From Eledone cirrhosa (Eukaryota): a DNA stretch of 64,000 nt. Below are positions 7,575 through 64,000 of the stretch, one piece after another (position 1 is the first letter of the stretch; the number at the start of each line of letters is the position of its first letter). A program made the translations under genes and the position numbers. The notes below the pieces were generated by a model that did not search any database, had not been told where the DNA came from, and saw only the letters and a list, made by a program, of their open reading frames with translations. The stretch is taken from the NCBI GenBank assembly GCA_964016885.1, contig OZ024747.1, forward strand, positions 37,262,001 through 37,326,000, given 5' to 3'.

Positions 7575-9133
7575 TACTACTACCACCCCGTTAATCCTCC
7601 CCACAAGGCCGAGGTGGCTACACCTATCGGGAAAATCTTCTTTAGGCTCCTTGAAAAACACTTTTCACCACAACACCGCTACCACAACATAATCAACAAA
7701 AAACACTATCAAGCTCTCCTAAAGCCCCACACGCAACTTCGCACAAAACGTCGTCTCCTCAAACAACAAAAAACTCAACGCCTACGGAAGAAACAACCTA
7801 GAAATTAGTGGAGAGCCGACCAGGAGGTGTAACTGCCCCCATGGTTCTACGTGCCCCCTCAACAACAGATGCCGAGAACGTAACGTGATCTACCAGTGCA
7901 ACGTGAGGACGGACACCTCCAACAAAGCTTATATAGGATTAACTGCTTGTGACTTTAAGACCCGGCGCTACCAACACCGACATACGTCCGGAACCCGGTC
8001 CGGCGACATGCCACCACACTTTCGGGCCATATCTGGGACCTCCAAGATAATAATATAATTTACCATCTTACTTGGAGCTTACTGTCCAGAGTCAACTCTT
8101 ACACGGGAAGACGCCGTCCGTGTAACTTATGCTCCGAGGAAGCATTACTAAAATTGTTTACGAAGGATCAACTCCTAAACAAAAAAGACGAACTGGTAAC
8201 TGCATGCAAACACAGATTGCATAGGTCTTACCTCGCCCTCAAATCCCCTAACGACCCGGGTGGGTAGACAATGGCTGAGACATCCCACTTGCCGAATAAG
8301 ATAGGGGAAACCCCAGCTGACATAGGTAGATGTACCTCTTTTCTTTTCCTCCATGTTTTCTTCTTCCCTTTGTCTCCCCCTATCACTTCTTCCTCGTTCG
8401 TTTCTTTATTTTTCTTTCGCCTTTCGCCTACCCCGAGGCAGCCCATCGGGCCTCTTTAGCCTCAGTACCCCCATCCCAGTAACTTACAGATAGCATTCGC
8501 TGATTACGCTATACTAACTATTCATAGCAGCTGTGTTTGACCCCAGATATGTGGTATTAATTTTTAATTTTTATTTCTAAATTTTTCAATTATTCTCATC
8601 TAGCAACTCATTCTGTGGCTTTGGCCGAAATATAGCAGCTGTGTTAGACTCTTTATTTCACTTCTCACTTTCCAATCTTACTTTCTTTTACATCTTTCCC
8701 TCATTTTTTATTATATTCTTTTTTATTATATTTTTTCTTTGTCCCCTAATCGCATTTGATTTAATATTTCTATAACGTCCCTCCTCCACTTTCTAAAGAT
8801 ACCTTTTTTCGCCATTTCCTCTGGCCTACTTTCATACACATTCCTTAGAATTTGTCGTGTAGATTTCACCTTCTACGCTTGACCGGCTCTACCGATTCCC
8901 CTATCGTTCTACAGGCAAGTTCAGCCATCCCCACCCCGCACCCACTGCCATGATAGACTTTTCTGTGTCCGGTACAAATTTTGACTAATCCCCTTGATAA
9001 CTACAATCTTTCCATATAAGGAAGTACCCTTGATAAGTTCGGCTATTTATTTACCAGACTAAAAGACTCTTAATTTAGTTCAGAAATAGCCGTCGAAACG
9101 GCTTGAGGTCTGCCGTCGGGGTCATACTTTCTC
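7575..9133 (+). mobile_element. 5'-truncated Penelope-like element (GIY-YIG) with hammerhead-bearing 3' repeat
   Basis: NPP...IGKIFFRLLEKHF...CNC...CPLNNRC...VIYQC...YIG motifs with frameshifts. Ends in the hammerhead at 9026-9122 next to (TA)n. Confidence 0.85.
9026..9122 (+). ncRNA. Type I hammerhead (U3-A8) with long stem II at the 3' end of a Penelope-like element
   Basis: accc-UUGAUAA-g..cggcuauuu...aaauagccg..c-GAAA-cggc uugaggucu gccg-UC-gggg. Confidence 0.75.
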
Positions 9134-9315
9134 CTATATATATATATATATATATATATATATACACACACACATATATATATATATATATATATATATA
9201 TATATATATATATATATATATATATATATATATATATACATATATACGTATATACATATACATGTATATATATATATATATATATAGTTATGTAATAAAC
9301 AACATAAGGCAATTA

Positions 9316-9376
9316 TTTCATTTACCAGTGGTTTCTTAAAAGCAAACAAATTTAGCTTTCAATCATCAGAATGAAA
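9316..9376 (-). ncRNA. Type I hammerhead with canonical CUGAUGA core
   Basis: uuucauu-CUGAUGA-uugaaagc...gcuuuuaa-GAAA-cc acu gg-UA-aaugaaa. A decayed inverted copy (GAAA to GUAA) lies at about 9587-9647. Confidence 0.75.
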
Positions 9377-9850
9377 AAGTCCTGGTGTATTTATTGGCGA
9401 TGGATTTTAAAAACAAAAATATAATCTATATGAAAGTGAGGCTGGAAAAGGAAGATGGAAAGGAAAAATAAAAACACACATGCAAACACACACACAATTA
9501 TATACATACACATATATATATACATACACACATACATACACACACATATATACACACACACACACACATATATATATATGGATTTTTTTCATTCTGATGA
9601 TTGAAAGCAAAATTTGTTTGCTTTTAAGTAATCAGTGGTAAATGAAATAATTGCCTTATGTTGTTTATTACATAACTATTAAGCTCTGTTACCTACATAG
9701 AGCACTCTTTTTTTCCTGGACTTTTCCGACGGAATTACTTCATTTACACACACACACACACACATATATATATATATATATATATATATATATATATATA
9801 TATATATATATATATATATATATATATATATATATATATATATATATATA

Positions 9851-11325
9851 TATAATTTCAGCGGGATCGTATTTCGGCGGTGGCCAAAACAAATAGAAAC
9901 GCAATCTTCGAGATATGCCGGCAAGCGCTCAATTGACTAAGAAGAAACCAGAGCAATTAACATATGTTATAAAGGCCAGATAAAATGAAAACAGTGGTTG
10001 TGAAGTTGGCAGCCACCGTAGCCGAAAAAACGAATCAAGCTAAACAGGTTAACAAACAATTATTAGCTGGACCATCCCGGAATGTGATGGTAAAATCCAG
10101 TGGGAGGTTTCTGTGACTCCTAAATCAAGTATACTGTCTGCTTTTGTAGTAACCTTTTGGCATAACGATCGTACAAGGTAGCCATTTCGTCAACAGGTTT
10201 TCTGTTCTCAGCCGCCTACCGGGTTCCAATGAAGTAGCAGTGAAGTGACTACGCCATGTGTTTACCCTGCAAGGGAGGTAACCCCGGTTTTTGGCTGGTG
10301 CATTCAAAATGTGTAAAGGAACTGCAAAATATTGCAAAAAACTGCAGAAATCGAAGTAAGCTCTCTACCGGGTTGTTTTTAAAATAAACTTAAGCAATTA
10401 ATCAGTCAATTAATCAGTCTAATTGAATTAACTAATTAATTGCTAGGCCAGGGAGATTAATATAAATATAATTTCAGCGAGATTGTATTTCGGCAGTGGC
10501 CAAACCAAAACGAAACGCATTCTTCGGCAAGCGCTCAATGGACAAAGAAGAAACCAGAGCAATTAACATGCGTGTGTGTGTGTGTGTATATATATATAAA
10601 AGAAATAGTAAAAAAGGAAAAAACAGTAGAAAATGCTAAAGAGATTTTCTCTCAGAATAACATCAAAACATTTATTTACAAAATAGGGATTTCCGCATTT
10701 AATTGTACCGGTTTCAGCTTATACGCTCAGTCGAGGGCCAACAGCTTAAACTGCAACTACCACTGTTGGTAAGGCTAAGGTCAACACTAAAGAGAGAAAG
10801 GAGAAAACTATGGACAAAAATGTGAACTTTTCTCCCTATATATATATATGTAAAAATAATTGTTTCCCTATATTCTTATTATTCTTATTAATATGCAATG
10901 TAATTGCATTATACACTTGCAGCGTTGAAAAAGCGTATAGGCTGAAGCCGGTACAATTAAATGCAGAAATCCCTATTTTGTAAATAAATGTTTTGATGTT
11001 CTTAGAGAAAATCCCTTCAGCATTTTCTACTGGTTTTTTTCCTATTTTCCTATTTCTTTATATATATCAACTCGTGTGTCACTTCTTTACATTCCATATA
11101 TATATACACACACACACATGTTAATTGCTCTGGTTTCTTCTTAGTCCATTGAGCGCTTGCCGGCATATCTCGAAGATTGCGTTTCGTTTTGTTTTGGCTA
11201 CCGCCGAAATACGATCTCGCTGAAATTATATTTATATTAATCTCCCGGGCCTAGCAATTAATTAGTTAATTCGATTAGACTGATTAATTGACTGATTAAT
11301 TACTTAAGTTTATTTTAAAAACAAC
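9851..11325. repeat. Unclassified direct plus inverted repeat family between microsatellites
   Basis: ataatttcagcg...agagcaattaacat at about 9851 and 10468 (direct). 11117-11325 is the reverse complement of about 10373-10570. Confidence 0.7.
10608..11095. mobile_element. Inverted pLTR-like repeat pair with a decayed U3-A8 hammerhead
   Basis: 10608-10727 is inverted to about 10931-11060. UUGAAAA-agc guauag gcu-GAAG-ccgg-UA at about 10925-10953; the partner arm keeps GAAA. Confidence 0.55.
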
Positions 11326-63351: not shown

Positions 63352-63440
63352 CTCAGCAAACAGGGGAGATAAGCCGACAAGGGCCTTGTTTCGCTTTTGT
63401 TGAAGCTTATCAAGGCTAACTACCCCTCCTGTCTACTGAG
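63352..63440 (-). ncRNA. Type I hammerhead ribozyme (U3-A8 core), copy 1 of a 318-bp tandem repeat
   Basis: Minus strand reads agcc-UUGAUAA-gcuu caacaa aagc-GAAA-caag gcc cuug-UC-ggcu. Stem I extends about 24 bp with a 3-nt bulge. Predicted cleavage after GUC at 63376/63375. Confidence 0.9.
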
Positions 63441-63669
63441 ATTACTGATGTTATATTCTTATAGAATTCTAGTAAATAATCAGGAGCTGATTATACAGAG
63501 CGATTGTTGGTCAGGCAGAAATTAAAAATTAGAATTGGAGCTCTGAAATAGCAATATATATATGGATGTATATATAATGTATTTTGCAATACACTTTATG
63601 CTTAATTAAAAGCATTTTGAAGACCGTATGCTATTGTTTTAGAGTAGTGACAAATTCACTTACTTTAAT

Positions 63670-63745
63670 CTCAGCAAACAGGGGAGATAAGCCGACAAGG
63701 GCCTTGTTTCGCTTTTGTTGAAGCTTATCAAGGCCAACTACCCCC
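63670..63745 (-). ncRNA. Type I hammerhead ribozyme (U3-A8 core), copy 2
   Basis: Same core and stems 318 bp from copy 1; cleavage at 63694/63693. Distal stem I is replaced by a C12 tract at the inversion junction. Confidence 0.85.
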
Positions 63746-64000
63746 CCCCCCCTACTCTAAAACAATAGCATACGGTCTTCAAAATGCTTTTAATTAAGCA
63801 TAAAGTGTATTGCAAAATACATTATATATACATCCATATATATATTGCTATTTCAGAGCTCCAATTCTAATTTTTAATTTCTGCCTGACCAACAATCGCT
63901 CTGTATAATCAGCTCCTGATTATTTACTAGAATTCTATAAGAATATAACATCAGTAATCTCAGTAGACAGGAGAGGTAGTTAGCCTTGATAAGCTTCAAC

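What the first reader, a model, noticed from the sequence alone, without database searches (positions are those of the whole stretch)
9026..64000. U3-A8 core variant dominates across unrelated hammerhead families
Seen: hammerheads at 9026, about 10925, 16151, 16635/17423, 48014/48096 and 63372/63690/63982 all read UUGA(U/A)AA rather than CUGANGA, yet have different stems and flanks. Established: positions 3 and 8 form a Watson-Crick pair in the active fold, so U3-A8 is a compensatory change. Inference: this reflects selection for function in several families of an AT-rich genome, and searches fixed on CUGANGA would miss them. In a cephalopod, A-to-I editing of A8 or nearby adenosines could tune activity (speculative).
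Basis: partly seen in the sequence, partly recalled or inferred. Interest (0 to 1): 0.8.

Follow-up and report, generated by a model that had tools for sequence, protein, structure and literature searches.

The report
Penelope hammerheads with swapped core pair
These are hammerhead-ribozyme sequences at the ends of Penelope-like jumping genes and of a small tandem repeat; the U-A swap in their core is already known and makes up only about a fifth of sampled copies, but one family likely kept spreading after that base pair was broken and later restored it.

Summary
The motifs are real. All ten listed copies read UUGA(U/A)AA; 7 keep the whole core, 3 are decayed. They are 6 insertions from about 3 lineages: Neptune-type and Hydra-type Penelope-like elements (PLEs) and a 318-nt non-LTR retrozyme. 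They are not six unrelated families. "Dominates" fails. In an evenly spaced 1.2-Mb genome sample scanned blind to positions 3 and 8, C3-G8 scored 100 and U3-A8 25; the other 14 pairs stayed at background. One C3-G8 class alone has 113,101 genome matches. Natural U3-A8 is published (PMC3088659; Schistosoma PLEs, PMC4209133). An AT-pressure cause is not supported: the AU-richest helix III goes with C3-G8. Covariation itself holds: a C3-G8 sister retrozyme is 69% identical over the unit. New: relatives of the 9030 element form two successive subfamilies (about 500 copies) with a mismatched C3·A8 core, CUGAGAA. The ORF tree reads U3-A8 → C3·A8 → U3-A8. Cleavage, expression and editing are untested.

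The parts
9027..9121 (+). Type I hammerhead, U3-A8 core (N3 9030, cleavage-site C17 9117), long helix II, hairpin helix III; 3' repeat (pLTR) of a Hydra-type PLE. Its family contains the C3·A8 subfamilies.
   Evidence: family 4,423 + 145 pattern matches
7563..8132 (+). Broken 3' end of the PLE ORF (linker and GIY-YIG-type endonuclease) of the 9030 element
   Evidence: tblastn; 83% aa identity over 223 aa to the intact 786-aa frame of L185
9323..9369 (-).
   Evidence: family seen in 5 sample stretches
9594..9640 (+). Inverted partner of the 9369 C3-G8 copy, GAAA decayed
7352..7407 (-). Decayed C3-G8 minimal hammerhead (3-nt loss in the core region)
   Evidence: 87% identity over 151 nt to a C3-G8 family member
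10925..10953 (+). Decayed U3-A8 minimal hammerhead, CCGG helix III, GAAG for GAAA; its inverted partner at 10706-10727 (-) is cut off before the core
16153..16190 (+). U3-A8 minimal hammerhead, CCGG helix III, weak helix I; 71% like the pLTR of the RT+GIY-YIG element in L162
16638..16667 (-). Decayed U3-A8 copy (G12 lost), inverted partner of 17428
17428..17457 (+). Decayed U3-A8 copy (G12 lost); family of the RT-bearing element in L155
48018..48047 (-). Intact U3-A8 minimal hammerhead, CCGG helix III; left arm of an inverted PLE end pair (47938-48209)
48100..48129 (+). Intact U3-A8 minimal hammerhead; pLTR 93% identical to that of the RT+GIY-YIG element in L152 (Neptune-type motifs)
63203..63747 (-). 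Non-LTR retrozyme, 1.7 tandem units of 318 nt, with intact U3-A8 hammerheads at 63376-63413 and 63694-63731
63752..64000 (+). Inverted copy of the same retrozyme; hammerhead begins at 63986 and is completed in the next stretch of the contig

Best explanation
The motifs are type I hammerhead sequences in the 3' repeats of Penelope-like retroelements and in one 318-nt tandem retrozyme, and they likely cut tandem transcripts into unit-length RNA for retrotransposition. Those with the palindromic CCGG helix III would have to act as dimers; 9030 and 63413 have hairpin helices III and could act alone (inferred from PMC4209133). The 3-8 state is inherited from each master element: C3-G8 in about 80% of sampled motifs and 11 of 16 multi-copy families, U3-A8 in about 20% and 5 of 16. 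Selection on masters likely keeps the two bases paired, but not absolutely. In the 9030 family the pair was likely broken (U3-A8 to C3·A8, together with G7), two subfamilies still amplified, and the youngest subfamily regained U3-A8. Shown: sequence, counts, linkage to RT/GIY-YIG frames, tree shape. Inferred: cleavage, dimers, selection, order of events.
For: Blind scan of 120 x 10 kb: C3-G8 100, U3-A8 25, all 14 other pairs 21; controls 18 reversed, 20.4 shuffled. Homology-based count including decayed copies: 173 / 46 / 3 of 222. RT+GIY-YIG frames lie 1.0-1.4 kb upstream of CCGG/U3-A8 motifs (L152, L162, L014). Frames with DKT, RWR and CxCX5C lie upstream of the 9030-type motif. The retrozyme has 1,051 exact copies, U3-A8 in 100 of 100 listed, arrays at 318-nt spacing over more than 70 kb, and a circle z-score of -6.4. 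A 311-nt C3-G8 sister is 69% identical over 442 nt. Loci picked by ORF DNA alone: 36 of 40 hold the hammerhead, C3 in 36 of 36, U3 in none. Tree with the nearest outgroup (60% aa, U3-A8): U3-A8 basal, C3·A8 next (97/94), U3-A8 nested inside (100/99). C3 as one clade is rejected, p 3e-11; U3 as one clade is rejected, p 3e-4. Position 3 is the only one of 131 columns shared by the two C3 subfamilies at which both U3 groups carry the same other letter.
Against: No cleavage or RNA data. Genomic copies decay at positions 3 and 8 like other core positions (8, 6, 10, 10, 8, 11 of 173), so selection is inferred only at the level of masters. The C3·A8 subfamilies show that the pair is not always required. 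In one deep scan only the G3-C8 swap rescued, and all other core single and double mutants were low (PMC9901934, passage), so U3-A8 may be weak in some contexts. The root is fragile: with distant outgroups it fell inside the C3 rows without support, and adding one distant outgroup collapsed the base (second tree); only 'at least one C3·A8 to U3-A8 change' is root-independent. A short conversion tract from a U3 sister is not excluded (column +18). The 10925 family is tied to the Neptune-type group only by its shared motif. The outgroup's core is read from its inverted upstream repeat.
Confidence: 0.82

Rival explanations
1. One reading: U3-A8 dominates across unrelated families because AT pressure plus selection converted the pair repeatedly.
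For: 6 of 8 window insertions are U3-A8; U3-A8 occurs in three lineages; the sampled genome is about 36% GC.
Against: 25 of 125 in the even sample; 113,101 C3-G8 matches in one class; neighbours 5 of 14; AU-rich helix III goes with C3-G8 and CCGG with U3-A8; four window families share one motif, and three of them one ORF clade.
Confidence: 0.04
2. Cleavage is dispensable for PLE spread: 3-8 states are passengers, the C3·A8 core is dead, and the return to U3 was a chance C-to-T change.
For: About 500 C3·A8 copies in two subfamilies (11 of 100 listed of 4,423; 31 of 100 listed of 145; 12% of contig depth). Naiad PLEs spread without canonical hammerheads, and the authors raise parasitism (PMC8557442, passage). 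PLE minimal hammerheads cleave weakly in vitro (PMC4209133).
Against: 16 of 16 multi-copy hammerhead families in the sample have a Watson-Crick 3-8 pair as commonest state (two further multi-copy clusters, a U·C and an A·G one, look like background). A C-G/U-A double change separates sister retrozymes. The break was reversed at the same site.
Confidence: 0.3
3. CUGAGAA is not a mismatch but a register shift: G7 pairs with C3 in place of G8, giving a core one base shorter, with the next A as the extra base often seen before helix II in PLE hammerheads.
For: C3 and G7 appear on the same short branch (0.012 changes per site). G7 is in 43 of 44 C3 copies, whereas N7 takes all four letters among U3 subfamilies. 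An extra base between 9 and 10.1 is a described PLE feature (PMC4209133).
Against: Only two closely related masters carry it, so constancy of G7 may be plain inheritance; N7 changes often anyway. No paper describing such a core was seen in the one search for the string (listing only; one of the six hits opened, where the string is incidental).
Confidence: 0.25
4. C3·A8 RNAs were cut in trans, by pairing with a U3-A8 sister through the self-complementary helix III region.
For: The helix III loop holds a GAGCUC palindrome; U3-C7 and C3 copies have similar tip lengths, 0.02-0.07, so they may have coexisted; dimer cleavage is described for PLE hammerheads (PMC4209133).
Against: The intramolecular helix III is stable (4-5 G-C-rich pairs); the tree is ladder-like, as for one succeeding master.
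Confidence: 0.12
5. A-to-I editing at A8 tunes activity; it would switch C3·A8 on (C-I pair) and U3-A8 down.
For: Host is octopus-like; inverted pairs such as 47938-48209 would give long double-stranded RNA; heavy editing in coleoids is recalled, not tested.
Against: A8 lies in a single-stranded junction. In CUGAGAA its 5' neighbour is G, which ADARs disfavour (recalled). A transcript through an inverted pair would pair off the ribozyme itself.
Confidence: 0.05

Closest known systems
Minimal hammerheads of metazoan Penelope-like elements, incl. the U3-A8 variant of Schistosoma Cercyon elements (Cervera & de la Peña 2014, PMC4209133)
   Same: Type I motif in the pLTR; palindromic helix III; inverted pairs a few hundred bases apart; most copies without ORF; U3-A8 as a sizeable minority (about 1,300 against 2,000 there).
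   Different: Far more copies here (142,002 exact-pattern matches over five patterns; about 310,000 extrapolated). U3-A8 in two PLE clades and a retrozyme. A multi-copy C3·A8 lineage is not described in the parts read.
Non-LTR retrozymes (Cervera & de la Peña 2020, PMC7229834; Li et al. 2026, 10.64898/2026.07.22.740005)
   Same: Tandem unit of 170-400 nt, low GC, one type I hammerhead per unit, no ORF, strongly self-paired predicted circle, PLE-like inverted insertions.
   Different: U3-A8 core, with a C3-G8 sister family in the same genome; no cephalopod term in either main text; circular RNA not shown here.
Natural U3-A8 hammerheads (Perreault et al. 2011, PMC3088659)
   Same: Same covariation; stated there to be active in vitro.
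   Different: Rare there ('several examples'); tens of thousands of copies here.
Hydra-clade and Neptune-clade PLEs (Craig et al. 2021, PMC8557442)
   Same: [quoted passage not shown]
   Different: Assigned by motifs only, not by a tree with named references; that paper used a canonical descriptor and, in the passages read, reports no 3-8 variants.

Membership tests
Type I hammerhead ribozyme | Core U4 G5 A6 A9 G12 A13 A14, A15.1-U16.1 pair, H17 | tested here: met
   7 of 10 listed copies; 10925, 16667 and 17428 fail
Type I hammerhead ribozyme | Watson-Crick pair between 3 and 8 | tested here: met
   U3-A8 in 10 of 10 listed window copies; not met in two subfamilies of the 9030 family elsewhere
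Type I hammerhead ribozyme | Three helices around the core | tested here: met
   Descriptor passes 9030, 48047, 48100, 63413, 63731; 16153 has a weak helix I. Predicted minimum-energy folds of 16153, 63413 and the C3-G8 copy 9369 differ from the hammerhead fold
Type I hammerhead ribozyme | Rfam hammerhead model at gathering score | tested here: not met
   0 hits; HH9 at 23.7 and 22.7 bits against 52. The intact C3-G8 copy is also missed, so the models do not cover these forms
Type I hammerhead ribozyme | Self-cleavage after H17 | not testable with these tools
   needs an in vitro assay
PLE pLTR hammerhead | Lies in the 3' repeat downstream of an RT + GIY-YIG frame | tested here: met
   48100 family L152; 16153-like L162; 17428 family L155 (RT hit only); 9030 window remnant and L185. 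No frame found for the 10925 family
PLE pLTR hammerhead | Inverted 5'-truncated partner copy and microsatellite flanks | tested here: met
   inverted partners at 10925, 17428, 48100, 63413 and 9369; 9030 ends at a (TA)n run
PLE pLTR hammerhead | Palindromic helix III, dimer cleavage | tested here: inconclusive
   palindrome present in the four CCGG families; dimer activity not testable
Hydra-clade PLE (9030 family) | DKT, RWK, CxCX5C linker, no CCHH | tested here: met
Hydra- and Neptune-clade PLE | Placement in an RT tree with named reference elements | not tested
   no reference set at hand; Neptune and Nematis not told apart
Neptune-type PLE (CCGG families) | DKG, CX2-5CxxC linker, two Cys inside the GIY-YIG motif | tested here: met
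   L162, L152
Non-LTR retrozyme (63413) | Tandem 170-400-nt unit, GC under 45%, hammerhead in each unit, no ORF | tested here: met
   318 nt, 33.6% GC, U3-A8 core in 152 of 153 array cores read, longest stop-free run 50 codons
Non-LTR retrozyme (63413) | Expressed as linear and circular RNA | not testable with these tools
   needs RNA data; the predicted circle folds at z -6.4

The most novel reading that the evidence does not exclude
The CUGAGAA core of the 9030 family is a working hammerhead without the 3-8 pair as normally drawn: either a one-base-shorter core in which G7 pairs with C3, or a C3·A8 ribozyme switched on by A-to-I editing. The family records a natural break and repair of the catalytic pair across successive autonomous retroelements, in a genome with some 300,000 hammerhead motifs.
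Probability: 0.28. Interest if true: 0.75.

Novelty: new variant of a known kind. Interest (0 to 1): 0.48.

Why it matters
The headline as written (U3-A8 dominance) is a local excess of a known variant. Two things remain useful. First, CUGANGA-only descriptors miss about a fifth of hammerheads in this genome, and Rfam at gathering score missed every copy in the window. The motif load (142,002 exact-pattern matches; about 310,000 extrapolated) is at or above the largest figure in the papers read, about 120,000 in axolotl (PMC7229834). Second, whether PLE hammerheads must cleave for retrotransposition is called unclear in PMC8557442. A lineage that amplified with C3·A8, which is the G8A state relative to the canonical core, and then returned to U3-A8 gives matched natural before, during and after sequences for a direct assay.

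Tried and rejected
The first four genome counts used only helix III CCGG and seemed to confirm dominance, 23,282 against 101. I rejected that reading: the pattern selects one lineage, and most of the 101 C3-G8 rows are a helix II segment of another family. A repeated 'CUGAGAA...CCGG' family is LINE coding sequence, not a hammerhead. The PLE frame next to a retrozyme copy in L023 is a separate insertion with its own C3-G8 motif; no autonomous partner of the retrozyme was found. My first idea that C3·A8 is the intermediate from C3-G8 to U3-A8 was dropped once a nearer U3-A8 outgroup was found. The window frame at 14427-14957 is Hydra-type, so it is not taken as the ORF of the 16153 motif. Folding z-scores do not separate these short motifs from shuffles. 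No RNA holder listed; the contigs laid say nothing on expression or editing, and cover in other organisms was too thin to use. A link between U3-A8 and G10.1 directly after A9 (7 of 8 against 11 of 25 clusters, Fisher p 0.046) is tentative: clusters are related, and two window families break it. No G3-C8 or A3-U8 family appeared in the sample (1 hit each, background level). Earlier scan findings: none returned. Four papers could not be read (Lünse 2017; Przybilski & Hammann 2007; Nelson & Uhlenbeck 2008a, b).
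Full report
OBSERVATION. All ten listed sites read UUGA(U/A)AA. Seven keep the whole core: 9030+, 16153+, 48047-, 48100+, 63413-, 63731- and 63986+, the last completed in the next stretch. Three are decayed: 10925 (GAAG for GAAA), 16667 and 17428 (G12 lost). They belong to six insertions, mostly inverted pairs. Rfam reports nothing at gathering score.

DOMINANCE. The window is G000:C7:37262001-37326000 of a 3.0-Gb genome. Exact patterns with helix III CCGG gave U3-A8 23,282 (control 44), C3-G8 101 (154), C3·A8 191 (21) and U3·G8 180 (24). 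That pattern picks one lineage, so I drew 120 evenly spaced 10-kb stretches from 21 large contigs (80 of 120 from the four largest, which hold 54% of the genome). I scanned them with descriptors free at positions 3 and 8. Strict version: 56 C3-G8, 13 U3-A8, 2 other of 71. Final version: 100, 25 and 21 other of 146, against 18 hits in reversed and 20.4 in shuffled DNA; 17 of the 100 come from tandem arrays in three stretches. U3-A8 is 20% (95% CI 13-28%). By family and stretch it is 15 of 69; by multi-copy family, 5 of 16. Homology search including decayed copies gave 46 of 222. Genome-wide, C3-G8 with helix III of the U-RYRY-A class has 113,101 matches (control 368), while U3-A8 with that helix is at background (2,706 against 2,348). 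The window's excess (6 of 8 insertions, P about 0.0015) does not extend to the 150 kb around it (5 of 14 copies). Local scarcity of the large C3-G8 class and the choice of this window among many are the likely causes (inference).

WHAT CARRIES THEM. Relatives of the 48100, 16153 and 17428 motifs lie downstream of RT frames, with GIY-YIG hits in L152 and L162. These frames are 50-61% identical to one another and show Neptune-type motifs as defined in PMC8557442. The 9030 motif follows a broken frame at 7563-8132, 83% identical to the intact 786-aa frame of L185, which has the Hydra-clade marks DKT, RW(R) and CxCX5C. The same clade includes C3-G8 families. The 63413 motif sits in a 318-nt, 33.6% GC unit with 1,051 exact copies, arrays longer than 70 kb and a predicted circle at z -6.4: a non-LTR retrozyme. 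A 311-nt family with C3-G8 aligns over the whole unit at 69%, a direct double change. So U3-A8 stands in three lineages, not six.

SELECTION. Mismatched copies in the CCGG class are about 0.8% each, as expected from decay of paired masters, and positions 3 and 8 decay no less than other core positions (its seeds were chosen for an intact core). Selection can be read only from masters: 16 of 16 credible multi-copy families have a Watson-Crick pair as commonest state. The AT explanation runs the wrong way for helix III.

THE EXCEPTION. In the 9030 family, 11 of 100 listed of 4,423 matches and 31 of 100 listed of 145 have C3 with A8, mostly CUGAGAA; contigs of a DNA-type run show C at 9030 in 12% of depth. 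That is about 500 copies. Forty loci picked only by ORF DNA similarity to two such elements (two are the queries, two are duplicates of each other) gave the hammerhead in 36, C3 in 36 of 36 and A8 in 32 of 36. On 1,062 ORF columns, U3-A8 rows are not one clade (p 3e-4) and C3 rows are not one clade (p 3e-11). With the nearest outgroup found (60% aa identity, U3-A8 in its inverted repeat) the tree is a ladder: the window's U3-A8 lineage, then C3·A8 subfamily B, then A, then the youngest U3-A8 subfamily (98-99% identical copies, intact frame). The pLTR letters agree with this grouping. With distant outgroups the root is unresolved, so the root-free claim is at least one return from C3·A8 to U3-A8; conversion from a sister copy is not excluded. 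One row lacking ORF columns was dropped, and 23 of the 40 loci were added as rows beside the two query elements. C3 and G7 arise on the same short branch, which fits a register shift but does not show it.

MECHANISM. Most likely the hammerheads cut tandem PLE or retrozyme transcripts into units, as dimers where helix III is palindromic (model and weak in vitro activity in PMC4209133). U3-A8 is a tolerated alternative; C3·A8 was a weakened or re-registered state that an active lineage passed through. Cleavage is not shown. Editing of A8 would by pairing rules harm U3-A8 and help C3·A8; the host is octopus-like, but nothing here tests editing.

LITERATURE SEEN. PMC4209133: parts 1-2 of 4 of the text, no supplements. 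PMC3088659: section 8 and passages. PMC8557442: introduction and passages. PMC7229834, PMC3884650, PMC9901934, PMC7151607 and PMC6765202: passages. bioRxiv 10.64898/2026.07.22.740005: part 1 of 5 and a term search. Searches for cephalopod hammerheads and for 3-8 variants listed no report of cephalopod PLE hammerheads or of an amplified C3·A8 core. Lünse 2017 and three RNA-journal papers were not readable and may bear on novelty. ADAR neighbour preference and coleoid editing levels are recalled.

VERDICT. The finding's headline is not supported, and the variant is known. The elements are new members of known kinds; the broken-and-restored core pair in one Hydra-type family is a new variant worth a cheap assay. 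Interest 0.48.

Noticed in passing
G000:C8:32190001-32265000 (L014-L019): The 318-nt retrozyme forms a satellite-like array over more than 70 kb (32.21-32.225 Mb not fetched); 152 of 153 cores read are U3-A8.
   Followed up: partly
L081:281-3381, L086:8630-9683, L078:9880: 311-nt tandem retrozyme with C3-G8 and palindromic helix III CGCG, sister of the window's retrozyme.
   Followed up: partly
window 9075-9135; L031-L150: The 3' half of the 9030 hammerhead (GAAA plus helix III) occurs alone as short, often inverted insertions: 44 without core against 7 with core in 1.2 Mb; contig depth there is about 50 times that of the core.
   Followed up: partly
L237:994 (G000:C7, 21 kb past the window end): An intact-looking C3·A8 (CUGAGAA) copy next to a distant U3-A8 relative at L012:9765.
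   Followed up: yes
L023:1755-5150: Near-full-length PLE of a third type (DKS motif, Asn-rich N-terminal region, frame broken before the endonuclease) with a C3-G8 minimal hammerhead; copies at 92-95% identity in L030, L119, L127, L129.
   Followed up: partly
window 14427-14957 (+) and 38010-38234 (+): Further Hydra-type PLE frame remnants with no hammerhead assigned.
   Followed up: no
window 60708-61919 (-): 404-codon open frame of a reduced-folate/thiamine carrier (PF01770), 72% identical to an Octopus vulgaris protein.
   Followed up: partly
window 57550-58602 (+) and 4983-5738 (+): LINE remnants: RT with DUF6451, and an AP-type endonuclease.
   Followed up: no
window 1874, 2434, 6341, 16223, 33297, 45859, 56465: A SINE-like repeat of about 215 nt in at least seven copies (families D8, D11, D19).
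   Followed up: no
L071:5268-6069: C3-G8 hammerhead with helix III CUAG in a 467-nt tandem plus inverted copy, probably another retrozyme.
   Followed up: no
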